From IMG/VR virus record IMGVR_UViG_648276668_000012: a stretch of 25,312 bases of DNA; one strand, 5' to 3'. Shown one piece after another: positions 1,135-21,427 of this stretch (its first letter is position 1; the number at the start of each line of letters is the position of its first letter). The DNA is from a virus. Taxonomy: Duplodnaviria; Heunggongvirae; Uroviricota; Caudoviricetes. Made by a program: the position numbers and the translations under genes. Under the pieces are notes generated by a model, which worked only from the letters and a program-made list of their open reading frames with translations, was not told the DNA's origin and did no database searches.

Positions 1135-1506
1135 TCATAAGTACCGATATGATTGCGGGGCCGTTATGTTATCACCTAATGAACTTAGATGAAGTGGTTG
1201 GTCATAGATTTTTAGATTACCAATTTCTATAGCAAAGGCCTTTTCTTTGCTATGAAAATATGAGTCAAAAAATTGTTTACTGATACCCGCGTATTGGCTT
1301 GTTTTTTCCCATACAATACTCGGCTTGCCTTCTATAACATCTGCAATGTCAAATTCAGCAACAACTTTACCGACAGGCATTGTTGAATAAATAACCACAG
1401 ATTTTACATCCGGGTTTTTGAAAATACCTTTCCTGAATTCAAACTTCTTTGTTCCATTAAGAATTTTTTCAACAAATTCAGGTTTTATTGACAATAACAC
1501 TTTCAT
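1135..1506 (-). CDS. ASCH-domain (PUA-like fold) protein
   Basis: 123-aa ORF; N-terminal 'LSIKPEFVEKILNGTKKFEFRKG' matches the ASCH-domain signature by recall; AT-rich codon usage unlike the phage backbone. Confidence 0.6.
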   Translation of the reverse strand: MKVLLSIKPEFVEKILNGTKKFEFRKGIFKNPDVKSVVIYSTMPVGKVVAEFDIADVIEGKPSIVWEKTSQYAGISKQFFDSYFHSKEKAFAIEIGNLKIYDQPLHLSSLGDNITAPQSYRYL

Positions 1507-1711
1507 CTACAGCACCAAGTTTAATTATATCGTCAAATTGCTTATCGGTTAATTTAACAACACCCCAACGGTTTTTAGGATTCAAACCAATTTCTTCGAT
1601 TAGTTTAGCACGATTTATTCTTTTAGGTAAAGCTAGATTATATGTAAAACTAATAATGTAAGGGTATCTTTTTGTTTGATAGAATTTTTTTAATTCATTT
1701 TCAGAAAACAC
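1478..1711 (-). CDS. Hypothetical small protein (77 aa), overlaps the ASCH gene by 29 nt
   Basis: ORF with GTG start and no clear Shine-Dalgarno; different frame from the downstream ASCH ORF; could be a separate coupled gene or an artefact. Confidence 0.35.
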   Translation of the reverse strand: MFSENELKKFYQTKRYPYIISFTYNLALPKRINRAKLIEEIGLNPKNRWGVVKLTDKQFDDIIKLGAVDESVIVNKT

Positions 1712-1851
1712 ACTGTATCGTGCACAATACTGTATGAATTCATTTTCACTATGAAAAGAATCAATATATCTAATATCTTCAACTACACATAATGACGTTG
1801 CGACAGAACGATAGTATGCTCTGTTCTCTTCGTCACTTGTTCTGTAAACAA

Positions 1852-2553
1852 CTAATATGTCATGTTTTTTATTTTTGTTACATCATGCATTCTGCATATG
1901 TATATTTTTCTAATGCTGTTAGCATGAGATACATCCGTTATTATATCTGGAGATTCGGTGACGAGTTTTGAATCCGGAAAAAGTTTAGTATGAAATTTAG
2001 GGTATATTGATAATAGATATTTGCTCTCATTATTTTTATTGTTTATATATGGGTAATCAGAAAGAATATCTCCTGTGAGGTGATCTCTATTCATCTCTCT
2101 TACTAAGACATTTTCTATACCATTTGCGGTTTTTTTTGTGCCATGAAGAATGAATCCATAAAGTTTGAATAGTTTTATTAAATATTCATGTTTTTCAAAT
2201 ACAGTAACATAAATATCATTAACTTTTTCTTTTAAAGCATGGTCAAATATTTTTTTAAAAACGTTGTCCTCGTAATGTTTTTTTGTGTTGAACTTAAAAG
2301 TTCCAATTTTCAAATGCTTATCGTTAACGATTGATGGTGTAACATCTGTTATTGTACCGTGCTCAATTTTTAAATACATAAAACCATCAATGGTATTATC
2401 GTCATTATAAAGTACATATGCTTTTTCTTCTGGATTCAGGCTTTTTTTGTTAAACCATTCAATAAAACCGTGTTTATAGTCATTTTTTAATGAATCAAAG
2501 AATATATCATCAAAATTTACTTGACTGAATGGAATAAGCTTTAAATTTTCCAT
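1852..2553 (-). CDS. Hypothetical protein (233 aa), cargo island; possible acyl-transferase-like fold (weak)
   Basis: Uninterrupted 233-aa ORF, AT-rich, co-oriented with flanking genes; C-terminal segment 'EKHEYLIKLFKLYGFILHG' loosely resembles the GNAT motif B region, but no clear motif A. Confidence 0.5.
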   Translation of the reverse strand: MENLKLIPFSQVNFDDIFFDSLKNDYKHGFIEWFNKKSLNPEEKAYVLYNDDNTIDGFMYLKIEHGTITDVTPSIVNDKHLKIGTFKFNTKKHYEDNVFKKIFDHALKEKVNDIYVTVFEKHEYLIKLFKLYGFILHGTKKTANGIENVLVREMNRDHLTGDILSDYPYINNKNNESKYLLSIYPKFHTKLFPDSKLVTESPDIITDVSHANSIRKIYICRMHDVTKIKNMTY

Positions 2554-2580
2554 GTTGCCCCCTGTTTAATTTTTGTGTGA

Positions 2581-3651
2581 TTATCTTCTATAGGTCAAAA
2601 GGTGAATTAATATATATATTGCAATAGCTAGGATTGCTCCACATATATAATATGTGCCTGTCGGTATGAATTTAAGAATAAAAGCAAAGGCGGCACCATA
2701 TATCAAGTATGCGAAAATTTTACTGAATTTTGTTTTCGTGTTTTTAAACTTCACAACAACAGAGAAGTCATTTAGTCTTGCTTTTTTATCATTAACAATC
2801 TTCCAATGGTAAATCATAGGATCGTGATCACCAAATGAAATATCCTTATCGAAATATTTTGTCCATGTTTCAGACTCTAATATTCTACATCCTTTATAAC
2901 TTGAACCAGATGCTGAACATTCATCAACAATATCTCTAATGATAAACAAATGTGTTTTTAAAGGCGTACAAGCGGCGCTCGCCAGAGTTGTAGCGATTTC
3001 TGAAGGTAGGTTTCTTTGTTCATTGATCCTAAAGTCAATAATATCAGAACGCTCAATATTGCTTTTGAGAAAGAGATCTTTGGGATAAAATGTTTTTACT
3101 AAAATACCTATATCATCAATGTTGAGTTTAACGCGAAATCTCAAGTAATGTGGAGCGTCCTCTGAAGATAGGCAATCTTTTAGCTTGAAAACAATAAAAG
3201 TACCATTATGTATTTTAGTTACCTTAACTCTACGGTCAAGTTCACCACCACTAAAAGTTAGCTTTGTATTAACAACTAAATCACCTTTATTCGCGAGTAC
3301 TAATTTTAAATGTCTGACGTCTACAGTTTTGGTATTAATAAGATACTCATTAAAAACAGCCGTTACGAGATCTCGGCTTGACTCGAGATTTTCACTAAGA
3401 TCCGAAAAAAAACAGTTTTCTTTCTCAAATGGTAAAAATATGCATATTGCGCCATGATTTGCAATAGTATCGTCATCGGGTTTTTCAAACGTAATACCAA
3501 AATCTAAATAACCAAATTTATGAGCACTTAGATTCCAAAAGTTTATATGCAACTCATTAATAAAATTCTTGTGTTCAGGGTTATAGGTCGAGCTCGAATC
3601 ACTGCGATAATCCCTGCATCCCCAGACAGCAAAACTTTTTGACATAAACAT
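2581..3651 (-). CDS. Hypothetical protein (356 aa) with C-terminal double transmembrane anchor
   Basis: Long AT-rich ORF; last ~45 residues form two hydrophobic helices (IFAYLIYGAAFAFILKF ... YYICGAILAIAIYILIHLL); no recognisable catalytic motif. Confidence 0.55.
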   Translation of the reverse strand: MFMSKSFAVWGCRDYRSDSSSTYNPEHKNFINELHINFWNLSAHKFGYLDFGITFEKPDDDTIANHGAICIFLPFEKENCFFSDLSENLESSRDLVTAVFNEYLINTKTVDVRHLKLVLANKGDLVVNTKLTFSGGELDRRVKVTKIHNGTFIVFKLKDCLSSEDAPHYLRFRVKLNIDDIGILVKTFYPKDLFLKSNIERSDIIDFRINEQRNLPSEIATTLASAACTPLKTHLFIIRDIVDECSASGSSYKGCRILESETWTKYFDKDISFGDHDPMIYHWKIVNDKKARLNDFSVVVKFKNTKTKFSKIFAYLIYGAAFAFILKFIPTGTYYICGAILAIAIYILIHLLTYRR

Positions 3652-3673: not shown

Positions 3674-4240
3674 TTATACATCTGATAATATTTTTCGATA
3701 GCATCTTGCGATGGGTTTAATATCGTCAAGCATACAATCAAAAGATGTTTGTCCACTGCTAACTTGCACTCTCCCAACTGGAATTCTAACCAGATCACGA
3801 GAACTTATTTTTCCTTCTATTTCAACAATCCATTTCCCATCAATAATTTCATCAAATTTCATGTCTACTAGATAATTATCTGATAACTCAGAAAATATTG
3901 CGGGGGTAATCATATCCTCCGGGAGCAAATCTTTATCAAAAATGTAAGAGGAATCACCTTGTAGCTTGCCATCTACTATTTTGTAATGTGGCAATTTTAT
4001 ACCTTCTTTCGTTGCCTCAAGACGAGGGGAACCAACACCAGACACTAACCACTCGAGAGACACTCCCGTTTCTAGAGCGCACTGGATTACCCAATCTGCT
4101 GGAAAAATATCACGCATATAGCGCGTTGCCATGGTGCTCTTAGAAACACCTAAATGATCACAGAGAGCCTGACGGGTACCGAACCCATATGCTTCAACTA
4201 AACGTTCTATGGCTTTCTTACCGCCGCTATTGAAATCCAT
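3674..4240 (-). CDS. cI: CI-type immunity repressor (186 CI-like)
   Basis: Protein 'MDFNSGGKKAIERLVEAYGF...CALETGVSLEWLVSGVG' resembles the 186 CI N-terminal DNA-binding domain; chosen start has GGAG RBS 6 nt upstream (the track's longer ORF to 4327 lacks this); position between int and apl/cII. Confidence 0.75.
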   Translation of the reverse strand: MDFNSGGKKAIERLVEAYGFGTRQALCDHLGVSKSTMATRYMRDIFPADWVIQCALETGVSLEWLVSGVGSPRLEATKEGIKLPHYKIVDGKLQGDSSYIFDKDLLPEDMITPAIFSELSDNYLVDMKFDEIIDGKWIVEIEGKISSRDLVRIPVGRVQVSSGQTSFDCMLDDIKPIARCYRKILSDV

Positions 4241-4267
4241 AAGTTCTCCAAAGAAATCCAAAATTCG

Positions 4268-4296
4268 TTGACAGATTCCAAAAGCGATCTTAAAGT
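4268..4296 (+). promoter_or_regulatory. Candidate rightward early promoter (pR-like): TTGACA-N17-TAAAGT
   Basis: Perfect -35 hexamer TTGACA at 4268-4273, 17-nt spacer, -10-like TAAAGT at 4291-4296, about 90 bp upstream of the apl start. Confidence 0.4.
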
Positions 4297-4385
4297 TGAA
4301 CCAGAAGTGTTCTTTTGGAGCCTTCACTACTAATCACGACAAACAACGGCTCGCCACAAGCCATATCTAGAAGGAATGTTGCCTT

Positions 4386-4589
4386 ATGACACCTAACATT
4401 TCAATTACTCTGAATACACCACATGTCACAATCGAACGTTATAGCGAACTGACTGGCCTTTCTATTGATACGATTAACGACATGTTGGCTGATGGCCGAC
4501 TACCTCGTCATCGTCTTCGTAAAGACAAAAAACGTGAAAAGGTAATGATTAACCTGGCTGCTCTGACTGTTGATGCTTTGTCTGCTTAA
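4386..4589 (+). CDS. apl: Apl/Cox-like excisionase and transcriptional regulator
   Basis: 67-aa protein with helix-turn-helix-like segment ([22 protein letters not shown]); first gene of the rightward operon, divergent from cI, as in 186/P2. Confidence 0.6.
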
Positions 4590-4644
4590 TAGACGTCTAT
4601 TTTCGCAATAAGACGCTGAGTTCGATTTTGCGATAAGTTCGGAG

Positions 4645-5163
4645 TTGAAAACCATGTTTGATTACCAAGTTTCCAAACATCCACATTTTGATGAAGCCTG
4701 TCGTGCATTCGCACTGCGCCACAACCTGGTGCAACTGGCAGAATGTGCAGGCATGAATGTACAGATTCTGCGGAACAAGCTGAACCCAGCTCAACCTCAT
4801 TTATTAACCGCACCAGAAATCTGGCTGCTTACCGATCTGACTGAAGATTCAACGCTGGTAGATGGTTTTCTGGCTCAGATTCACTGCCTGCCATGCGTAC
4901 CGATTAATGAGGTGGCAAAAGAGAAACTGCCGCATTACGTCATGAGTGCAACTGCTGAAATTGGGCGTGTCGCGGCAGGTGCGGTTTCTGGCGATGTAAA
5001 AACCAGTGCCGGTCGTCGTGATGCTATCAGCAGCATTAACTCTGTAACACGACTGATGGCGCTGGCCGCTGTTTCATTGCAGGCCCGTTTACAGGCTAAT
5101 CCTGCGATGGCGAGTGCAGTTGATACCGTGACTGGCCTCGGTGCTTCATTCGGTTTGCTGTGA
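4645..5163 (+). CDS. cII: CII-like lysogeny establishment regulator (186 CII family)
   Basis: N-terminus '[20 protein letters not shown]' and C-terminus '...[21 protein letters not shown]' closely match the remembered 186 CII sequence; true start may be the ATG at 4654. Confidence 0.8.
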
Positions 5164-5170
5164 GGTGCTT

Positions 5171-5371
5171 ATGCTGACGAAAGAACCATCATTTGCATCG
5201 CTGCTGGTAAAACAAAGCCCGGCAATGCACTACGGTCACGGCTGGATCATGGGGGAGGATGGTAAACGCTGGCATCCGTGCCGTTCACAAGATGAATTGC
5301 TGGCAGAACTATCTACGAATAAACGGGGGAACAAATGGCTATTGAAGGCGCTGCGGCGACTGTTCCATTAA
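5171..5371 (+). CDS. Hypothetical early protein (position equivalent to 186 fil)
   Basis: ATG at 5171 preceded by GAGG; 66 aa; assignment by position only. Confidence 0.45.
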   Translation: MLTKEPSFASLLVKQSPAMHYGHGWIMGEDGKRWHPCRSQDELLAELSTNKRGNKWLLKALRRLFH

Positions 5372-5676
5372 GCCCCGGTGAACGCCTGAATGGACTTAAT
5401 CACATTGCGGAATTAAGGGCGAAAGTATTTGGCCTGAATATTGAGTCAGAACTTGAGCGGTTTATTAAAGATATGCGTGATCCACGGGATATCAATAATG
5501 AACAAAATAAACGGGCACTGGCTGCCATATTCTTTATGGCAAAAATTCCAGCTGAACGTCATAGCATCAGCATTAATGAGCTGACCACTGACGAAAAGCG
5601 GGAGTTGATTAAAGCAATGAATCATTTTCGTGCAGTGGTGAGCTTATTTCCCAGACGGCTAACCATGCCGAATTAA
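5335..5676 (+). CDS. Hypothetical early protein (113 aa)
   Basis: ORF in the early rightward operon with backbone-like GC; overlaps the upstream ORF by 37 nt. Confidence 0.5.
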   Translation: MAIEGAAATVPLSPGERLNGLNHIAELRAKVFGLNIESELERFIKDMRDPRDINNEQNKRALAAIFFMAKIPAERHSISINELTTDEKRELIKAMNHFRAVVSLFPRRLTMPN

Positions 5677-5743
5677 CCAACTAATGAAATTAATGGCGTA
5701 AACCCGCCGGGTATCCCTTTATCTAAATTCAGGAGAATTGATT

Positions 5744-5977
5744 ATGCGTAATATTGAAACCCTCACGACTAAAACCGGACCGGATGATGCAGGGCTTAAT
5801 ATTTTACTGACAGAGGCTCGTCTGGAAGAACGCCGGGCAAGGGCTGAAGCAATGGCAGCTCGCCTTGATAGCCTGGCGTGTCATATCACATCCCGCCAGC
5901 TAAACCACGTCGAAGCAGCAGAACTACTGCGTGTAACTGCTGAAGCAATCCAGAACGAAGCGCAGGAGATCCACTAA
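5744..5977 (+). CDS. Hypothetical early protein (about 78 aa, alanine-rich coiled-coil-like)
   Basis: AGGAG RBS 8 nt upstream of the ATG at 5744; conserved position before the TraR-like gene in P2-like phages. Confidence 0.5.
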   Translation: MRNIETLTTKTGPDDAGLNILLTEARLEERRARAEAMAARLDSLACHITSRQLNHVEAAELLRVTAEAIQNEAQEIH

Positions 5978-6204
5978 TGGCTGATGCAATGGATCTCGTA
6001 CAGCAGCGCGTTGAAGAAGAACGCCAGCGCCATATCCGTGCTGCCCGTGCCAAAACGCCGGGCGTGTCCCGCGTGCTTTGCATTGAGTGTGAAGCGCCAA
6101 TTCCGCCAGCACGCCGCCGCGCTATTCCAGGTGTGCAGCTTTGCATTACCTGCCAGGAGATCGCAGAGCTGAAAGGCAAACATTACAACGGAGGTGCTGT
6201 ATGA
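5977..6204 (+). CDS. TraR/DksA-family C4 zinc-finger protein
   Basis: CxxC...CxxC motif (CIECEAPIPP...LCITCQ); 75 aa; typical of P2 orf82-like early proteins. Confidence 0.7.
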   Translation: MADAMDLVQQRVEEERQRHIRAARAKTPGVSRVLCIECEAPIPPARRRAIPGVQLCITCQEIAELKGKHYNGGAV

Positions 6205-7058
6205 GCACCATCCTGAAATGGGCGGGTAATAAAACCGTCATTATGCCAGAACTGAAAAAATACCTTCCTGCTGGCCCGCGACTGGTTGAACCTTTCGCGG
6301 GTTCTTGTGCTGTGATGATGGAGACGGATTACCCCAGCTATCTGGTTGCGGATATTAATCCTGATTTAATCAACCTCTATAAAAAGGTTGCCGCTGATTG
6401 TGAATCGTTTATATCTCGCGCCAGAGTTTTATTTGAGAACGCAAACAGGGAGATGGCTTATTACAACATAAGGCAGGAGTTTAATTACTCAACTGAAATT
6501 ACTGATTTCATGAAAGCGGTATATTTCCTGTATCTCAATCGTCACGGTTACCGTGGTTTATGTCGCTATAACAAGAGCGGGCATTTCAACATTCCCTATG
6601 GTAATTATAAAAATCCGTATTTCCCTGAAAAAGAAATTCGCGCATTTGCAGAAAAGGCCCAGCGAGCCACGTTTATCTGCGCCAGCTTTGATGAAACGCT
6701 GGCGATGTTGAAGGCGGGGGATGTGGTGTATTGCGATCCGCCTTATGACGGTGCGTTTTCCGGCTATCACACTGACGGCTTCACTGAAGATGACCAGTAT
6801 CACCTGGCATCCGTTCTTGAACATCGGTCATCAGAAGGACATCCGGTCATTGTTTCTAACAGTGACACATCCCTGATCCGTTCGCTGTATCGCAATTTTA
6901 CTCACCACTACATCAAGGCAAAACGCAGCATTGGCGTGGCAGCTGGTGAGAGTAAATCTGCAACAGAAATCATCGCTGTTTCCGGGCCGCGCTGCTGGGT
7001 AGGATTTGATCCTTCGCGTGGCGTGGATTGTTCCGTCGTGTACGGAGTGCGTGCATGA
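6201..7058 (+). CDS. dam: DNA adenine methyltransferase (Dam family, N6-adenine)
   Basis: N-terminal 'ILKWAGNK' AdoMet-binding motif and catalytic 'DPPY' motif ([10 protein letters not shown]); GGAGG RBS; ATGA overlap with the upstream gene. Confidence 0.85.
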
Positions 7059-9469
7059 GCCATGCTGATATGAACAACTGCAGCGGCTTTAACGAGGTCG
7101 CCGCAGCATTCTCATGGAACAGCCCGAAAAAGGCCATTAACCCTTATCTGGACCCGGCGGAAGTTGCGCCGGTTTCTGCGCTTTCAAACCTGATCACTCT
7201 GTACGCTGCCGATAACGAGCAGGAACAACTGCGCCGCGAGGCACTGAGTGATCAGGTCTGGGAGCGTTATTTCTTTAATGAATCCCATGATCCTGTCCAG
7301 CGCGAAATGAAGCAGGATAAGCTCATTAGCCGGGCAAAGCTGGCGCATGAGCAGCAGCGTTTTAATCCGGATATGGTCATTCTGGCGGACGTCAACGCCC
7401 AGCCTTCCCATATCAGCAAGCCGCTGATGCAACGTATTGAATACTTTAGCAGCCTGGGCAGGCCAAAGGCTTATTCCCGCTATTTACGTGAGACGATTAA
7501 GCCATGTCTGGAACGACTGGAGCATGTACGCGACAGCCAGCTATCTGCATCTTTTCGCTTTATGGCAAGCCATGAAGGGCTGGACGGCCTGCTGATCCTG
7601 CCTGAAATGAGTCAGGATCAGGTGAAGCGCCTGTCTACCCTTGTCGCCGCGCATATGAGCATGTGCCTTGATGCAGCTTGTGGTGATTTGTATGCCACCG
7701 ATGACGTTAAGCCAGAAGAAATCCGCAAGACATGGGAAAAGGTGGCAGCGGAAACCCTGCGTCTGGATGTCATCCCGCCTGCGTTTGAGCAACTCCGCCG
7801 GAAAAGAAACCGCCGTAAACCCGTGCCCTATGAACTCATTCCGGGTTCGCTGGCGCGTATGTTGTGCGCCGACTGGTGGTACCGGAAATTATGGAAGATG
7901 CGTTGCGAATGGCGGGAAGAGCAGTTGCGTGCTGTTTGCCTGGTCAGCAAAAAAGCATCTCCCTATGTCAGCTATGAAGCCGTGATGCATAAACGTGAGC
8001 AGCGCCGTAAGTCGCTGGAGTTTTTCCGTTCTCATGAACTGGTGAACGAAGACGGCGACACGCTGAACATGGAGGATGTGGTAAACGCCAGCAGCAGCAA
8101 CCCGGCGCATCGCCGCAACGAGATGATGGCCTGTGTTAAAGGCCTGGAGCTTATCGCGGAAATGCGTGGTGACTGCGCCGTTTTCTACACCATCACCTGT
8201 CCGTCACGTTTCCATTCCACGCTAAATAACGGCAGGCCCAACCCGACCTGGACAAATGCGACGGTAAGACAAAGCAGCGATTATCTGGTCGGTATGTTTG
8301 CTGCATTTCGTAAGGCGATGCACAAAGCCGGGTTGCGCTGGTATGGCGTGCGGGTGGCTGAGCCGCATCACGACGGCACAGTTCACTGGCACCTGTTGTG
8401 TTTCATGCGCAAAAAAGACCGCCGCGCCATTACTGCATTGTTGCGTAAGTTTGCCATCCGTGAAGACCGCGAGGAGCTGGGCAATAACACGGGGCCACGC
8501 TTTAAGTCTGAGCTGATAAACCCGCGCAAAGGTACGCCAACAAGCTACATCGCGAAATATATCAGCAAGAACATTGACGGGCGTGGTCTGGCTGGCGAGA
8601 TCAGCAAGGAAACGGGTAAATCTCTGCGTGATAACGCTGAATACGTGAATGCCTGGGCGTCTTTGCATCGTGTTCAGCAATTCCGCTTCTTTGGTATTCC
8701 GGGACGTCAGGCTTACCGTGAACTTCGCTTGCTGGCTGGTCAGGCGGCAAGGCAACAGGGTGACAAAAAAGCAGGTGCGCCGGTACTGGATAACCCGTGT
8801 CTTGATGCCATTCTGGCTGCTGCTGATGCTGGTTGTTTTGCCACCTACATCATGAAGCAGGGCGGCGTACTGGTTCCCCGTAAATATCACCTCATCAGAA
8901 CCGCTTATGAAATCAACGAAGAGCCGACCGCCTATGGCGATCACGGTATTCGTATTTATGGCATCTGGTCACCCATTGCAGAGGGCAAGATCTGCACTCA
9001 TTCAGTGAAGTGGAAAATGGTTCGTAAAGCCGTTGACGTTCAGGAGGCGGCAGCCGACCAGGGCGCTTGCGCCCCTTGGACTCGTGGCAATAACTGTCCC
9101 CTTGCTGAAAATTTGAACCAACAGGAGAAAGATAAATCAGCTGATGGGGACACCAGAACGGACATTACCCGCATGGATGACAAGGAGTTGCACGATTACC
9201 TGCACAGTATGAGCAAAAAAGAGCGCCGGGAACTGGCTGCAAGGTTACGCTTGGTGAAACCGAAACGGCGTAAAGACTACAAACAGCGAATTACAGATCA
9301 TCAGCGACAGCAGCTCGTTTATGAGCTGAAGTCCAGAGGATTTGATGGCAGCGAGAAAGAGGTCGATTTACTCCTTCGCGGCGGCAGTATTCCGTCAGGA
9401 GCAGGCCTGCGTATCTTCTATCGGAACCAGCGTCTGCAGGAGGATGATAAATGGCGGAACCTGTATTAA
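7055..9469 (+). CDS. A: Replication initiation protein A (rolling-circle nicking endonuclease, P2 gpA family)
   Basis: About 805 aa; contains the HxH-type motif 'VHWHLLCF' and a tyrosine-rich active-site region 'YIAKYISKN'; start ATG overlaps the dam stop (ATGA). Confidence 0.85.
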
Positions 9470-9562: not shown

Positions 9563-9578
9563 CTGTAAATATAAACAG
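9563..9578. promoter_or_regulatory. LexA (SOS) box CTGTAAATATAAACAG
   Basis: Exact CTGT-N8-ACAG with AT-rich spacer, 44 bp upstream of the ATG at 9622, overlapping an AT-rich -10-like region (TATACT). Confidence 0.6.
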
Positions 9579-9621
9579 TGGTTATGTGTACAGTATTGCT
9601 TGTGGTGTCATAGGAGGAAAA

Positions 9622-9810
9622 ATGCAGGACTATTTTTTGGAGTCTTTGAAGCTCCAGCGCATTGATTTTTTTCTTAAGCTTGTAGCGGCTAGTGAGTGTA
9701 GTGATGAAGAGAAGGGGCTGGCTCTGCAGTGGGTTTCTGAGTTGACTGATGAACTCATGGCAAAAATCAGAACTCACGAATACAACCGCTCAATGGATGT
9801 CATCAGTTGA
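9622..9810 (+). CDS. Hypothetical protein (62 aa), first gene of an SOS-controlled pair
   Basis: AGGAGG RBS immediately upstream of the ATG; preceded by the LexA box. Confidence 0.5.
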   Translation: MQDYFLESLKLQRIDFFLKLVAASECSDEEKGLALQWVSELTDELMAKIRTHEYNRSMDVIS

Positions 9811-9820
9811 GGTGACTTTT

Positions 9821-10054
9821 ATGCGCATTGAAATAATGATCGATAAAGAGCAGAAGATTAGCCAGTCTACCCTGGACGCCCTTGAATCAGAGCTTTACCG
9901 CAATCTGCGCCCCCTATATCCAAAAACGGTAATTCGCATCCGCAAAGGTAGCTCTAACGGTGTGGAACTGACCGGACTGCAACTGGACGAAGAAAGAAAA
10001 CAAGTGATGAAAATTATGCAGAAGGTGTGGGAAGACGACAGCTGGCTGCATTAA
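9821..10054 (+). CDS. tum: DinI-family protein (Tum-like antirepressor module)
   Basis: 'MRIEIMIDKEQKISQSTLDALESEL...VWEDDSWL' aligns by eye with E. coli DinI (MRIEVTIAK...ETWESADDWF); GAGGTG RBS; LexA box upstream of the pair. Confidence 0.75.
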   Translation: MRIEIMIDKEQKISQSTLDALESELYRNLRPLYPKTVIRIRKGSSNGVELTGLQLDEERKQVMKIMQKVWEDDSWLH

Positions 10055-10213: not shown

Positions 10214-10639
10214 CTACTTAATTGAGTCCAGTAACAAGTTACAGTTACTCTCATTGTAGAGAGAACGAGCAATTAGTGTTACCTGCTTTCCATTCATTCC
10301 CGGCTTATCCCATAACACAGCTTCTTGCGACGCCACAAATTCAGCATAATCAATTATGCGTTGTTCGTGATCTGGTTCCTCATAGCCAAAGTATGAGAGC
10401 GCATCGTTGTAAGCGTGGTAAGCTGCTTTCTGTAATATCTTGATATCGGCTGTAGGTACTTGCTCCGTGTAGCTAGGATCTAATTGTGTGCTACTGCCAT
10501 AGAATGCACATGAAAGGTAAGATATTGATTTCTGTTGAGCTTTAGTTCCTTTCTCATAGTTTTTAGCTGTTACCGCCTGAACTGGGACGCTAACAAAGCT
10601 TGCAACCAGAATTAAAATTAATACGTAAAAGCTTTTCAT
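10214..10639 (-). CDS. Hypothetical secreted/periplasmic protein (141 aa) with N-terminal signal peptide
   Basis: N-terminus 'MKSFYVLILILVASFVSVPVQAVTA' is a typical Sec signal peptide; AT-rich; opposite orientation to flanking genes; at the P2 tin/old-equivalent position. Confidence 0.55.
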   Translation of the reverse strand: MKSFYVLILILVASFVSVPVQAVTAKNYEKGTKAQQKSISYLSCAFYGSSTQLDPSYTEQVPTADIKILQKAAYHAYNDALSYFGYEEPDHEQRIIDYAEFVASQEAVLWDKPGMNGKQVTLIARSLYNESNCNLLLDSIK

Positions 10640-10912
10640 TTTGACCTCAGCCGAAACGTTAGAGAGACTATCGAAATTTGTAAAACCCGTGGCGATTCAG
10701 TTTGAGATCCTCCCCCTTACATGATTTTTAATCAAATATATGCTTTTGTAAGCATACCTGTTAACCGAATTATTTATTTTTAGAGATCTTCCGACATACT
10801 GATTATGCCCGCTGAGGAGTTCACCTTGCGTAAAGTCCGATTCGCTTTACTCGTCTGTGCATGCCTATGCTGCATGAGATTGCATGATCGTTTGAGGATC
10901 GTTTTTGCTAAG

Positions 10913-10936
10913 GCCCGCCAGAACTGGCGGGCTTTT
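10913..10936 (+). terminator. Rho-independent terminator (GC hairpin plus T-tract)
   Basis: GCCCGCCAG-AA-CTGGCGGGC perfect 9-bp stem followed by TTTT. Confidence 0.5.
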
Positions 10937-10981
10937 GCGTAGATCATGCACCTGCATGAAAACCACTATATAAAGCGGGCA

Positions 10982-11087: not shown

Positions 11088-11633
11088 ATGGATGCTATTA
11101 CTGGATTATTGGATTTTTTTAGAAAGATTCCAACGGCACTTCTTGTAGCTATTACATGTGGTTTAAGTTTGATCCTTTTTTTGCCAGAATCTTTAGCTTC
11201 TAAAGTTGCGGTTGATGGTTTCCGTAAAGAATATAGAAATTTCATAGGACCAGCATTTTTACTGGCTGTCTCTTTTTTAGTTGCAAGAGTATATCAGTTT
11301 TTTCATGACCTATATGGCGATAGACAAAGGCACAAAGTACGTATCTCTTATTTGGAGAAGCTAACTCCTGAGGAGAAGGGATACCTCTGGTCTTATATAA
11401 TTGATGGCGAAAACTCACTAATGTGTGGTCCTGAAGATGGTGTTATGGGGGGGTTGGTTGCTAAGCGCATAACCTATAGAGCTGCAAACGTGGGCAGTAT
11501 GATTGACGGATTCGCTTTCAATTTGCAGCCGTGGGCTCGCGAGCATTTACAGAACAACACTCATTTATTAGAAGGAGCGGTCGGTAGGGCAATGACACCG
11601 GGTGAGAAACTAGGATTCAGGCGTAGATTTTAA
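11088..11633 (+). CDS. Hypothetical inner-membrane protein (181 aa, two N-terminal TM helices); possibly SieB-like superinfection exclusion
   Basis: Two hydrophobic helices (IPTALLVAITCGLSLILFL; IGPAFLLAVSFLVARVYQFF) followed by a soluble domain; lies between cos and portal gene Q, where P2 has no gene; lower GC than backbone. Confidence 0.5.
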   Translation: MDAITGLLDFFRKIPTALLVAITCGLSLILFLPESLASKVAVDGFRKEYRNFIGPAFLLAVSFLVARVYQFFHDLYGDRQRHKVRISYLEKLTPEEKGYLWSYIIDGENSLMCGPEDGVMGGLVAKRITYRAANVGSMIDGFAFNLQPWAREHLQNNTHLLEGAVGRAMTPGEKLGFRRRF

Positions 11634-20482: not shown

Positions 20483-21427
20483 TTAAATTTCGGATTTGGT
20501 TTCAAGGTTTCTCAATGTATTCGGTATCAATGTTTCACTGAATCCAGAAAGCGCACAAATCACATAAATGGAGAATGAGATGTCACTACTATTATTCATA
20601 AACCCGAAGATAATATTCCCCTTGAGCATAAAGTATACAAGTACGCCAGCCATCATTGAAAGGAGTATTCTCTCCGCACCATAGAAGAAATAAGTTTTCT
20701 TTTTTAGTTCTCTGTCTGTATGGAGGCTTTTTATTTTTAGGGATACAGAAATAAACCCCCCGATGGAAGCAAAGGAAGCGGCGTATAACACCACTGGAAT
20801 AAAGTGATTAGCTTTTATGAAATTAGAATCTCTAGCCAAATATGTTATCAATGCAAGGATGATGAATATCAATGCTAAAGTTATGGCTCCTGATTGATAT
20901 AAATTCCTTCCAAGCATTGTGTTTTCATAATCGTTTTTAATGTCTCTATTTATTGCGGCGAAGTTATTTTTGTTTATATCATTTTTTCCAAGTATTGTTG
21001 CTGACATAACTGTTGCTGCTCTTTTTTTATAAATAGAAGAGCAGTTGTATTTGTAGCAATGTGAAATAAACTCATCAAAGTGCTCTTTTGAAGCATGATA
21101 TCTATCAATCTTACTGTCATCCTCCTCAATGATTGAGTCTATGAAAACGAGCATAGACTCATGAGGCGGAAGATTGGCTACTTCATAAATGACATATTCA
21201 TCCCCACGTGAATAAATTTTACTTATGGTGTTTCCACCCAAATCTGTTCCACCAACGACGTATTTGCCAATTCTTTCTTGCTGTTTTTTTTTGTATTCAT
21301 CCCTCTCCTTCTTTGTAGGTGGGGGATTGATGGGATCATTCATTGCATCCATGGGGACAATATTATCTTGCTCAGCTGCTTCTGGGGTATTGGTGTTAGT
21401 TGTCATTTTTTGTGTAGTTAATGTCAC
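20483..21427 (-). CDS. Hypothetical cargo protein (314 aa): N-terminal soluble domain plus four C-terminal TM helices
   Basis: AT-rich ORF on the strand opposite to the tail operon, between S and V; hydrophobic helices at roughly residues 170-300; own terminator. Confidence 0.6.
   Translation of the reverse strand: MTLTTQKMTTNTNTPEAAEQDNIVPMDAMNDPINPPPTKKERDEYKKKQQERIGKYVVGGTDLGGNTISKIYSRGDEYVIYEVANLPPHESMLVFIDSIIEEDDSKIDRYHASKEHFDEFISHCYKYNCSSIYKKRAATVMSATILGKNDINKNNFAAINRDIKNDYENTMLGRNLYQSGAITLALIFIILALITYLARDSNFIKANHFIPVVLYAASFASIGGFISVSLKIKSLHTDRELKKKTYFFYGAERILLSMMAGVLVYFMLKGNIIFGFMNNSSDISFSIYVICALSGFSETLIPNTLRNLETKSEI

What the first reader, a model, noticed from the sequence alone, without database searches (positions are those of the whole stretch)
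6201..7058. Prophage-encoded orphan Dam methyltransferase in the early operon
A complete Dam-family N6-adenine methyltransferase (ILKWAGNK and DPPY motifs) is translationally coupled between the TraR-like gene and the replication gene. There is no adjacent restriction endonuclease, so it is probably an orphan methylase used for anti-restriction or regulation.
Basis: partly seen in the sequence, partly recalled or inferred. Interest (0 to 1): 0.4.

Follow-up and report, generated by a model that had tools for sequence, protein, structure and literature searches.

The report
Ordinary phage Dam methylase, P2-like prophage
This is an intact, well-known type of phage DNA adenine methylase, almost certainly acting on GATC, that sits just before the replication gene of a very common P2/186-like E. 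coli prophage; it is real but ordinary.

Summary
Window 6201-7058 (+) is an intact 285-aa Dam-family N6-adenine DNA methyltransferase (Pfam D12 class 5e-76; TIGR00571 'dam' 8.6e-96; 47% identical to E. coli Dam). It has the ILKWAGNK and DPPY motifs. It is joined by 4-nt ATGA overlaps to the TraR/DksA-like gene upstream and to replication gene A downstream.

The window is a Felsduovirus-type (Fels-2 / RE-2010 / 186-like) prophage. The gene is 96.6% identical in nucleotides to gp10 of Salmonella phage RE-2010. It occurs in 1239 of 5426 complete E. coli genomes and is already annotated 'DNA adenine methylase'.

I found no restriction endonuclease in the window or in the complete RE-2010 genome, and the best PADLOC model is 'orphan methyltransferase'. 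Seven of eight E. coli Dam DNA-contact residues are kept, so GATC specificity is likely but untested.

The gene lies in the CI-repressed early lytic operon. It is therefore probably made together with the replication protein and methylates replicating phage DNA; this step is inferred. In relatives the same position also collects C5-methylase, DpdA-like and PAPS-reductase-like genes, which favours a DNA-modification or anti-restriction role.

The proposed lysogen-versus-cured methylome comparison would be uninformative in a Dam+ host. Verdict: already known, low interest.

The parts
6201..7058 (+). dam: 285-aa Dam-family (D12 class) N6-adenine DNA methyltransferase CDS, stop codon included
   Evidence: ORF and sequence. 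PF02086 5e-76. TIGR00571 8.6e-96. PADLOC oMTase 1.2e-110. 47% identity to E. coli Dam. dN/dS 0.13-0.17.
6190..6194 (+). GGAGG Shine-Dalgarno for dam, lying inside the end of the TraR-like gene
   Evidence: Read from the sequence. It sits 6 nt before the ATG at 6201.
6210..6233 (+). ILKWAGNK motif (aa 4-11). It contains K6, the counterpart of E. coli Dam K9.
   Evidence: Role of K9 taken from PMC4417163.
6291..6308 (+). Motif I region, PFAGSC (E. coli Dam has PFVGAG): AdoMet-binding loop. The first Gly is kept; the second Gly is Cys in this clade.
   Evidence: Alignments; coordinates.
6549..6611 (+). DNA-recognition hairpin, YRGLCRYN...NIPYGNYK. Counterparts of E. coli Dam residues: Y117 (Y119), R118 (N120, changed), L120 (L122), R122 (R124), P132 (P134), Y136 (Y138).
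   Evidence: Alignment, residue roles from PMC4417163, clade comparison.
6735..6746 (+). Catalytic motif IV, DPPY (aa 179-182). A clade-specific 5-residue deletion follows it relative to E. coli Dam.
6981..7055 (+). Clade-specific C-terminal tail (aa 261-285) that has no counterpart in E. coli Dam or P1 Dmt. It ends at the gene A start.
   Evidence: Alignment. tblastn covers residues 1-285 only in relatives at 72% identity or more.
5977..6204 (+). TraR/DksA-family C4 zinc-finger gene (homologue of 186 orf81). Its stop overlaps the dam start as ATGA.
   Evidence: PF01258 3.1e-11 and TIGR02419 3.9e-18; sequence.
5738..5977 (+). DUF2732 gene (homologue of 186 orf80). Its stop overlaps the TraR-like start as TAATG.
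   Evidence: PF10809 3.2e-29; sequence; 186 annotation.
7055..9469 (+). Gene A: rolling-circle replication initiator / nicking endonuclease. Its ATG overlaps the dam stop as ATGA, with GGAG at 7044-7047.
   Evidence: PF05840 Phage_GPA 3.5e-127; sequence; annotated 'replication endonuclease' in relatives.
7150..7176 (+). Hairpin (CCGGCG / CGCCGG) followed by a U-rich stretch, about 95 nt into gene A. It could be a counterpart of the 186 tM1 terminator. This is weak.
   Evidence: Conserved in RE-2010 and a Gegavirus. Fold energy -13.8 kcal/mol but z-score only -0.36. Position of 186 tM1.
3674..4327 (-). CI-type immunity repressor, expected to keep the early lytic operon (including dam) off in the lysogen
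   Evidence: PF07022 and PF16452. By analogy with the 186 annotation of pR repressed by CI.
4386..5676 (+). Start of the early lytic operon: Apl/Cox-like (4386-4589), CII (4645-5163), Fil (5141-5371), DUF5347 (5335-5676)
   Evidence: phrog_575; PF06892, PF10893, PF17282. Same gene order in Ec1120, RE-2010 and 186.

Best explanation
The gene encodes a solitary (orphan) Dam-family N6-adenine DNA methyltransferase that most likely writes G(m6A)TC. It belongs to the core early lytic operon of a Felsduovirus-type (Fels-2 / RE-2010 / 186-like, P2-related) temperate phage.

Shown here: the enzyme family, intact catalytic and DNA-contact residues, purifying selection, 4-nt overlaps chaining DUF2732, TraR-like, dam and A, the absence of a partner nuclease, and the very wide occurrence of the same arrangement.

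Inferred: the operon is silent in the lysogen because CI represses it. After induction or infection, ribosomes read TraR-like, dam and A in one coupled train, so the methylase appears together with the replication initiator. It then methylates the roughly 86 GATC sites per 25 kb of rapidly replicating phage DNA, for which host Dam is limiting. Packaged genomes therefore leave fully methylated. That would protect them from methylation-sensitive GATC-cutting restriction in the next host. It would also spare replicating DNA from proteins that act on hemimethylated GATC (SeqA, MutH).

A secondary, structural role is likely. Whichever gene occupies this last position before A must be translated to its end for A to be translated, as recorded for orf84 of phage 186.
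For: Family membership:
- PF02086 5e-76 over the full profile.
- TIGR00571 at 320.7 bits against a cut-off of 114.85.
- E. coli Dam structures at E 2e-72, 47% identity.

GATC specificity:
- The E. coli Dam base and phosphate contacts K9, Y119, L122, R124, P134, Y138 and R249 are all kept (roles from PMC4417163).
- REBASE-based tables list a second GATC methylase only in the S. Typhimurium types that carry the RE-2010 prophage (PMC4661946).

Functional gene:
- dN/dS is 0.17 against RE-2010 and 0.135 against a Gegavirus copy.
- dam is intact with identical motifs in 73 of 76 related viral contigs.

Orphan status:
- The best PADLOC model is 'orphan methyltransferase', E 1.2e-110.
- No nuclease family turns up in any window ORF.
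- The two unknown cargo proteins are membrane proteins with no nuclease-like fold.
- The complete RE-2010 genome has no REase annotated.

Operon logic:
- Gene order is the same in E. coli Ec1120, A30 and RE-2010.

DNA-modification context. The same position before A holds:
- Dam plus a C5-cytosine methylase in SEN5 and SW5.
- Dam plus a DpdA-like phrog_887 protein in 9 loci.
- Dam plus a PAPS-reductase-like protein in 4 loci.

Host Dam is reported to be rate-limiting for high-copy DNA (bioRxiv 10.1101/2020.06.22.160242).
Against: No activity or specificity was measured.

Three features are clade-specific and could change specificity or kinetics:
- One contact residue differs (E. coli Dam N120 is R118 here).
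- The loop after DPPY is 5 residues shorter.
- Motif I reads AGSC rather than GAG.

GATC is not unusual in the window (86 observed against 99-104 expected, ratio 0.82, within the range of other 4-bp palindromes). So there is no sequence signature of selection by GATC restriction.

Relatives without Dam (P2, 186) grow in the same Dam+ hosts (PMC3091744), and 3 of 76 relatives carry a disrupted dam. The enzyme is therefore dispensable at least in some settings.

Reviews say that the role of phage Dam enzymes is still not well understood (PMC7556043; PMC12707154).
Confidence: 0.6

Rival explanations
1. Replication or packaging helper rather than anti-restriction. On this reading GATC methylation is needed for the phage's own DNA transactions. 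It could keep SeqA and MutH off hemimethylated replicating DNA, or condition nicking at ori or cutting at cos, as P1 Dam does for pac.
For: Dam is translationally chained to the replication initiator A. P1 needs Dam methylation at pac (PMC12707154). Host Dam is limiting for high-copy DNA.
Against: P2 and 186 use the same A-type replication and cos packaging without a Dam. GATC sites are not clustered in gene A, where the 186 record places ori. Three of 76 relatives have a broken dam. The neighbouring slot contents (C5 methylase, DpdA-like) point to general DNA modification.
Confidence: 0.2
2. Epigenetic regulator in the lysogen. The prophage methylase would change host or prophage gene expression, or the lysis-lysogeny switch. 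This is the 'regulation' half of the first reader's idea.
For: Host Dam regulates several Salmonella prophages (PMC7380047; PMC12455584).
Against: The gene is far downstream in the operon that CI represses in 186-type phages. No strong internal promoter was found; promoter-like hits are not above the shuffle expectation. The host already methylates about 99.9% of GATC sites, so an extra GATC methylase adds little in a lysogen (PMC6602927).
Confidence: 0.08
3. The enzyme has a different or relaxed specificity, not plain GATC, because of the clade-specific N120R change, the shortened post-DPPY loop and the extra C-terminal tail.
For: These three features are fixed in the clade (73/73 intact copies have Y-R-GLCRYN). 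Some phage adenine methylases are known to have relaxed specificity (PMC7556043).
Against: R124, L122, P134, K9, Y138 and Y119 carry GATC discrimination in E. coli Dam, and all are conserved. The REBASE prediction for the RE-2010-associated enzyme is GATC.
Confidence: 0.1
4. The ORF matters mainly as a translated spacer that delivers ribosomes to gene A, and its methylase activity is incidental.
For: The 186 record notes that orf84 must be translated to its end for A to be translated. Two relatives (L045, L080) carry an in-frame DUF2732::dam fusion. It loses Dam residues 1-39, including the ILKWAGNK motif, but keeps the reading frame through to the A start.
Against: Purifying selection acts along the whole catalytic core (dN/dS 0.13 for aa 1-260). 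All motifs are invariant in 73 of 76 copies. A spacer would not conserve these.
Confidence: 0.04
5. It is the methylase half of a restriction-modification system whose nuclease lies elsewhere in the prophage.
For: Two cargo genes in the window have no known family: 2581-3651 (-) and 20483-21427 (-).
Against: Both are predicted membrane proteins. One is a beta-rich domain plus 2 C-terminal helices; the other appears to have about four C-terminal hydrophobic segments. No nuclease profile or fold matches either one. These cargo slots differ between relatives while dam stays constant. The best PADLOC model is orphan MTase.
Confidence: 0.02

Closest known systems
gp10 'DNA (adenine) methyltransferase' of Salmonella phage RE-2010 (Felsduovirus, Peduoviridae), and the identical slot in Fels-2-like prophages of E. 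coli and Klebsiella
   Same: 96.6% nucleotide and 96.5% amino-acid identity. Same length (285 aa), same neighbours (DUF2732, TraR/DksA-like, dam, gene A) and the same overlapping junctions. The gene is in 1239 of 5426 complete E. coli genomes, annotated 'DNA adenine methylase'.
   Different: Only point substitutions. The nearest E. coli copy (strain Ec1120) differs by 1 nt.
E. coli chromosomal Dam (EcoDam; PDB 2G1P, 4GOL, 4RTJ)
   Same: Same D12 / alpha-group architecture aligned end to end. DPPY, the AdoMet-binding ADIN region and 7 of 8 DNA-contact residues are conserved.
   Different: Only 47% identical. It scores below the cut-off of the chromosomal Dam equivalog model NF008152 (287 against 441 bits). 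N120 is replaced by R, there is a 5-residue deletion after DPPY, and there is a 25-aa C-terminal tail. It is phage-borne and expressed from a lytic operon.
Other phage-borne Dam enzymes: P1 Dmt (Dam domain), T4/T2 Dam, VT2-Sa/933W Dam, M.EcoGV, HP1 Dam
   Same: They are solitary GATC adenine methylases carried by phages of Dam+ hosts (PMC7556043; PMC6602927; PMC12707154). P1 Dmt aligns at 36% identity.
   Different: The lineages and genome positions differ. P1 Dmt is a fusion protein with a defined packaging role at pac. No specific role has been shown for the Felsduovirus enzyme.
Phage 186 orf82-orf84, the non-essential genes between the DksA-like orf81 and gene A
   Same: They occupy the same operon position, and the last gene is translationally linked to A. 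The orf84-type PAPS-reductase-like gene sits next to dam in 4 related contigs.
   Different: The 186 slot holds an RNase T-like exonuclease, DUF5405 and a PAPS-reductase-like protein rather than a methylase.

Membership tests
D12-class / Dam-family N6-adenine DNA methyltransferases (PF02086, TIGR00571) | Profile score above the curated cut-off over the whole domain | tested here: met
   PF02086 scores 256.2 bits (cut-off 22) over profile positions 1-253 of 253. TIGR00571 scores 320.7 bits (cut-off 114.85).
D12-class / Dam-family N6-adenine DNA methyltransferases (PF02086, TIGR00571) | Catalytic motif IV, (D/N)PP(Y/F) | tested here: met
   DPPY at aa 179-182, aligned to DPPY 181-184 of E. coli Dam.
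D12-class / Dam-family N6-adenine DNA methyltransferases (PF02086, TIGR00571) | AdoMet-binding motif I (FxGxG-like) and the acidic residue in the ADIN segment | tested here: met
   PFAGSC aligns to PFVGAG. The Phe and first Gly are kept; the second Gly is Cys, as also in the Yersinia phage copy. ADIN is conserved. The variant has been fixed under purifying selection.
GATC-specific Dam enzymes (EcoDam-like recognition) | Residues that read GATC in EcoDam: K9, Y119, N120, L122, R124, P134, Y138 (plus R249) | tested here: inconclusive
   K6, Y117, L120, R122, P132, Y136 and R242 are conserved, while N120 is R118 (roles from PMC4417163). This points strongly to GATC but is not proof.
GATC-specific Dam enzymes (EcoDam-like recognition) | Demonstrated m6A at GATC (DpnI-sensitive, MboI-resistant, or SMRT motif) | not testable with these tools
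   Only indirect evidence: a REBASE-derived table lists a GATC methylase unique to strains carrying the RE-2010 prophage (PMC4661946).
Chromosomal housekeeping Dam (NCBIfam equivalog NF008152 / PRK10904) | Score above the equivalog cut-off | tested here: not met
   287 bits against a cut-off of 441. It is a Dam-family paralogue, not the host dam orthologue.
Type II restriction-modification system | A cognate restriction endonuclease gene adjacent or in the same element | tested here: not met
   No nuclease family appears in any window ORF. The unknown cargo proteins have no nuclease fold. None is annotated in the complete RE-2010 genome.
Orphan (solitary) methyltransferases as modelled in PADLOC-DB | Best match to an oMTase model rather than an R-M-linked MTase model | tested here: met
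   PDLC03729 oMTase at E 1.2e-110 is the top hit, ahead of MTase_II at 4.3e-87.
186 / Fels-2-type (Peduoviridae) early lytic operon | Divergent CI repressor and Apl/Cox, then CII, Fil, then the DUF2732, DksA-like, accessory slot and gene A order | tested here: met
   Family hits. The gene order matches the 186 record and RE-2010.
186 / Fels-2-type (Peduoviridae) early lytic operon | Repression by CI in the lysogen, and translational coupling of the last slot gene to A | not testable with these tools
   Inferred from the 186 annotation and from the ATGA overlaps.

The most novel reading that the evidence does not exclude
The clade-specific features would make this a replication-coupled methylase with altered kinetics or relaxed specificity. 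Those features are the R118 substitution for the base-contacting Asn of E. coli Dam, the 5-residue shorter loop after DPPY, and the conserved 25-aa C-terminal tail that ends at the gene A start. The tail might, for instance, tether the enzyme to the gpA replication complex. The position just upstream of gene A would then be a dedicated 'DNA-modification slot' of P2-like phages that swaps Dam, C5-methylase, DpdA-like and PAPS-reductase-like genes as counter-defence cargo.
Probability: 0.1. Interest if true: 0.45.

Novelty: already known. Interest (0 to 1): 0.1.

Why it matters
It matters little on its own. This gene is already annotated in hundreds of phage and bacterial records, and phage-borne Dam homologues have been described for decades.

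Its modest value is as context. About a quarter of complete E. coli genomes carry this second Dam. That is relevant when interpreting GATC methylomes, dam-mutant phenotypes, and defence systems that sense phage Dam activity, such as retron-Sen2.

The biological role of Dam enzymes in phages of Dam+ hosts is still unsettled. This very common prophage would be a convenient system for testing it.

Tried and rejected
- **Partner nuclease.** I scanned every sizeable non-structural ORF in the window with Pfam, PADLOC and PHROGs. Nothing nuclease-like turned up.
- **The 356-aa unknown next to cI (2581-3651, -).** It has only 'hypothetical' homologues in Enterobacterales. The AlphaFold model (pLDDT 69.8) is a beta-rich domain plus two C-terminal helices, and it has no significant PDB fold match (best E 0.035). 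I rejected it as a restriction enzyme.
- **The ORF in the S-V slot (20483-21427, -).** It is AT-rich and, by reading its translation, appears to have about four C-terminal hydrophobic, probably membrane-spanning, segments. Rejected as well.
- **GATC avoidance or clustering as a sign of selection.** The observed/expected ratio of 0.82 is unremarkable among 4-bp palindromes, and there is no cluster in gene A.
- **Structured RNAs.** Rfam at gathering thresholds found no match in the window.
- **Counterpart of the 186 tM1 terminator inside gene A.** A conserved hairpin exists at 7150-7176, but its folding energy is not better than shuffled sequence (z -0.36), and it does not align with 186. Left as a weak note.
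- **Internal promoters or terminators around dam.** Hits were no more frequent than in shuffles.
- **The E. coli Dam structure paper.** I tried to fetch it by PubMed id and by a guessed PMC id; it is not held. I used PMC4417163 instead.
- I did not use the large protein-database searches on Dam itself, because the annotated collections already answered the question.
Full report
**1. What is in the sequence**

An ORF runs from ATG 6201 to TGA 7056-7058 on the + strand, giving 285 codons. The longer TTG-initiated ORF listed from 6141 is not needed. A GGAGG sits at 6190-6194, six bases before the ATG.

That ATG overlaps the stop of the upstream gene as ATGA (upstream gene 5977-6204). The dam stop overlaps the ATG of the downstream gene in the same way (7055-9469, with GGAG at 7044-7047). 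One gene further up, the DUF2732 gene (5738-5977) ends in TAATG at the start of the TraR-like gene. Four genes are therefore chained by overlapping stop and start codons.

ILKWAGNK is aa 4-11 (nt 6210-6233) and DPPY is aa 179-182 (nt 6735-6746).

**2. What the protein is**

| Search | Result |
|---|---|
| Pfam PF02086 (D12-class N6-adenine MTase) | E 5e-76, whole profile 1-253/253 |
| NCBIfam TIGR00571 (Dam family) | 320.7 bits, cut-off 114.85 |
| NCBIfam NF008152 (chromosomal Dam equivalog) | 287 bits, cut-off 441: not met |
| PDB sequence search | E. coli Dam chains 2G1P, 4GOL, 4RTJ at E 2e-72, then DpnM, then T4 Dam |
| Identity to E. coli Dam | 47% over 257 aligned residues |

The protein is thus a Dam-family paralogue and not the host gene.

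PMC4417163 gives the roles of the E. coli Dam residues:
- R124 reads the G of the fourth base pair.
- L122 and P134 contact the third base pair.
- Y119 intercalates.
- N120 hydrogen-bonds to a base.
- K9 and Y138 read the first base pair.
- R249 makes a minor-groove contact.

The alignment shows K6, Y117, L120, R122, P132, Y136 and R242 conserved here. N120 is replaced by R118.

Three further differences from E. coli Dam are visible:
- A five-residue deletion directly after DPPY.
- Motif I reading PFAGSC in place of PFVGAG.
- A 25-residue C-terminal tail (aa 261-285).

A comparison with other phage copies shows where these differences occur. R118, the deletion and the tail are shared with a Gegavirus copy at 72% identity. 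They are absent from the SEN5, SW5, P1 Dmt and Yersinia phage enzymes, which keep Asn at that position.

I conclude that GATC specificity is very likely. It is not demonstrated.

**3. The gene is functional and very common**

dN/dS is 0.17 against RE-2010 and 0.135 against the Gegavirus copy. The value for the catalytic core (aa 1-260) is about 0.13-0.14.

The gene is 96.6% identical in nucleotides to gp10 of Salmonella phage RE-2010 and to many Klebsiella phages. It is found in 1239 of 5426 complete E. coli genomes. There it is annotated 'DNA adenine methylase' and flanked by 'TraR/DksA family transcriptional regulator' and 'replication endonuclease'. The closest copy, in strain Ec1120, differs by one nucleotide.

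I also sampled 80 IMG/VR contigs whose gpA is 87-99% identical to the window's. These are the best hits and are therefore biased towards close relatives. Of these, 76 hold the full upstream region.
- 73 of the 76 carry an intact dam with identical [12 protein letters not shown] and Y-R-GLCRYN motifs.
- 3 carry a disrupted copy.

**4. The element around it**

The window is a 186/Fels-2-type member of the Peduoviridae. Genes identified, in window order:

| Coordinates | Strand | Gene or product |
|---|---|---|
| 1-1056 | - | integrase |
| 1135-3651 | - | cargo genes |
| 3674-4327 | - | CI repressor |
| 4386-4589 | + | Apl/Cox-like |
| 4645-5163 | + | CII |
| 5141-5371 | + | Fil |
| 5335-5676 | + | DUF5347 |
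| 5738-5977 | + | DUF2732 |
| 5977-6204 | + | TraR-like |
| 6201-7058 | + | dam |
| 7055-9469 | + | gene A |
| ends at 10054 (longest listed ORF starts at 9749; the copy annotated in Ec1120 corresponds to a start at 9821) | + | DinI/Tum-like |
| 10214-10639 (-), 11088-11633 (+) | -, + | cargo (phrog_7437 gene, sieB) |
| from 11678 | both | portal and terminase (-), then capsid, lysis, tail and baseplate genes (+) |

These assignments rest.

Close relatives are integrated next to rcdA in E. coli chromosomes, so 'prophage' is reasonable. The window itself shows no host flank.

The curated record of phage 186 gives the operon logic:
- pR is repressed by CI and drives apl, cII, fil, dhr and onward through anti-terminated terminators to gene A.
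- The genes between the DksA-like orf81 and A (orf82-84) are 'not essential'.
- The record notes that 'translation to end of orf84 appears necessary for translation of A protein'.
- A terminator (tM1) early in A stops untranslated transcripts.

In the window, dam occupies exactly that last position before A. By analogy, dam is silent in the lysogen and is made together with gpA at the onset of lytic growth. Its translation probably also serves to load ribosomes onto A. These steps are inferred.

**5. Is it an orphan?**

PADLOC's best model is 'orphan methyltransferase' at E 1.2e-110. No ORF in the window matches a nuclease family. Two cargo genes had no family, so I examined them.

The 356-aa protein next to cI has only hypothetical homologues. 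Its model is a beta-rich domain with two C-terminal helices and has no significant fold match in the PDB.

The AT-rich ORF between tail genes S and V appears, from its translation, to have about four C-terminal hydrophobic, probably membrane-spanning, segments. Neither protein looks like a restriction enzyme.

These cargo positions carry different genes in Ec1120, A30 and RE-2010, while dam stays constant. The complete RE-2010 genome has no restriction enzyme annotated. The refutation condition 'a cognate restriction endonuclease nearby' is therefore not met.

**6. What it most likely does**

The most informative new evidence is what else occupies this position in relatives:
- Nine of the 80 contigs have a 276-aa phrog_887 protein between dam and A. 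PHROGs calls it 'queuine tRNA-ribosyltransferase'. From my own knowledge, this is the family of the DpdA enzymes of 7-deazaguanine DNA modification.
- Four contigs have a PAPS-reductase-domain protein there, homologous to 186 orf84.
- Twelve to thirteen contigs have a DUF3850/ASCH gene between the TraR-like gene and dam.
- The more distant Peduoviridae SEN5 and SW5 have Dam followed by a C5-cytosine methylase just before A.

These results come, with counts. In the loci whose sequence was examined (L056, L064, L087, L013), the inserted genes are joined to their neighbours by 4-nt overlaps.

The position just upstream of the replication gene therefore collects DNA-modification genes. That favours the view that dam modifies the phage's own replicating DNA.

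Host Dam is reported to be limiting for high-copy DNA (bioRxiv 10.1101/2020.06.22.160242). Reviews list anti-restriction as the usual rationale for phage Dam, while stressing that the in vivo role is unclear. The exception is P1, where packaging requires Dam methylation (PMC12707154; PMC7556043).

Some evidence argues against a strong requirement:
- P2 and 186 lack Dam (PMC3091744).
- GATC is neither avoided nor clustered in the window: 86 sites against 99-104 expected.
- A few relatives have a broken dam.

Two of those relatives (L045, L080) are in-frame DUF2732::dam fusions. They lose the first 39 residues but keep the frame down to gene A. This fits the idea that translation into the A start is the part that cannot be lost.

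A regulatory role in the lysogen is the least likely reading. The gene sits in the repressed operon, and about 99.9% of GATC sites are already methylated by the host. PMC6602927 notes explicitly that prophage Dam homologues cannot be distinguished from Dam in a methylome.

**7. Comparison with what is known, and verdict**

The gene is a member of a known, annotated family: the Felsduovirus Dam, RE-2010 gp10-like. It belongs to the long-known class of phage-borne Dam homologues, which includes P1, T4/T2, VT2-Sa, M.EcoGV and HP1.

It is not the chromosomal Dam orthologue, and it is not part of an R-M system. It is already known.

The only mildly new points are descriptive. One is the clade-specific R118, short loop and C-terminal tail combination. 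The other is the recurrent pairing of dam with other DNA-modification genes just upstream of gene A.

**Caveat on sequence quality**

Relative to a 97%-identical prophage in E. coli A30, the window shows only deletions in A/T homopolymer runs in the AT-rich cargo region. This may reflect homopolymer sequencing errors. The dam ORF is unaffected.

Noticed in passing
L064:3162-3992, L087:3153-3983, L056:2922-3932, L013:2848-3150 (relatives of window 6201-7058): In related viral contigs the position just upstream of replication gene A accumulates further DNA-modification-type genes beside dam, chained to their neighbours by 4-nt overlaps in the loci examined. Nine of the 80 loci have a DpdA-like phrog_887 'queuine tRNA-ribosyltransferase' with no Pfam hit. 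Four have a PAPS-reductase-domain protein like 186 orf84. Twelve to thirteen have a DUF3850/ASCH gene. SEN5 and SW5 have a C5-cytosine methylase (L006:2486-3475, L007:2705-3628). This looks like a counter-defence or DNA-modification slot in P2-like phages.
   Followed up: partly
L045:3039-4004 and L080 (relatives): Two contigs carry an in-frame DUF2732::dam fusion. It deletes the TraR-like gene and Dam residues 1-39, so the ILKWAGNK motif is lost, but it keeps the reading frame to the gene A start. L057 has a frameshifted dam. This is consistent with translation into the A start being the indispensable feature of this position.
   Followed up: partly
window 1135-2553 (-): A PADLOC candidate defence pair, PDC-M11, lies between the integrase and cI. 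It consists of an ASCH protein (M11B, 1135-1506) and an N-acetyltransferase-like protein (M11A). The M11A gene is broken in the window by a 1-nt deletion in an A-run near 1870. It is intact (359 aa) in E. coli A30. Compensating homopolymer deletions also occur near 2256 and 2284. All the indels are in A/T runs, so they may be sequencing errors.
   Followed up: yes
window 2581-3651 (-): A 356-aa protein of unknown function lies between the PDC-M11 pair and cI. It has no Pfam, PADLOC or PHROG family. Its 25 close homologues (plus one marginal hit) are all 'hypothetical' or unnamed, and the named ones are from Enterobacterales. The predicted structure is a beta-rich domain with two C-terminal helices and has no PDB fold match. 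It may be an uncharacterised membrane-anchored defence or exclusion gene.
   Followed up: partly
window 20483-21427 (-): An AT-rich (34-36% GC) 314-aa ORF is inserted on the opposite strand between tail genes S and V. Read from its translation, its C-terminal half appears to contain about four hydrophobic, probably membrane-spanning, segments. It has no known family. RE-2010 has a different hypothetical gene at the same spot, so this is another cargo slot.
   Followed up: partly
window 9563-9578, with ORFs 9586-9810 and 9821-10054 (+): A perfect LexA-box consensus, CTGTAAATATAAACAG, lies just upstream of a small ORF and a DinI-family gene. The layout matches the SOS-controlled p95-tum antirepressor operon of phage 186.
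   Followed up: partly
window 10706-10942: Five GATC sites fall within 237 bp of the intergenic region between the phrog_7437 secreted-protein gene (10214-10639, -) and sieB (11088-11633, +). A terminator-like hairpin lies at about 10911-10938. The clustering is only marginally unusual. It could be a Dam-sensitive control region for these lysogenic-conversion genes.
   Followed up: no
window 7150-7176 (+): A conserved GC hairpin followed by a U-rich stretch lies about 95 nt into gene A. It sits at a position similar to the tM1 terminator annotated in phage 186. It is conserved in RE-2010 and a Gegavirus but is not thermodynamically distinctive (z -0.36).
   Followed up: partly
L004:1501-2280 (Yersinia phage vB_YenM_42.18, OM046624.1): An apparently intact Dam ORF, 54% identical to the window protein, lies just upstream of gpA. 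The record annotates only two short hypothetical ORFs there, so this looks like an annotation gap in the public record.
   Followed up: partly
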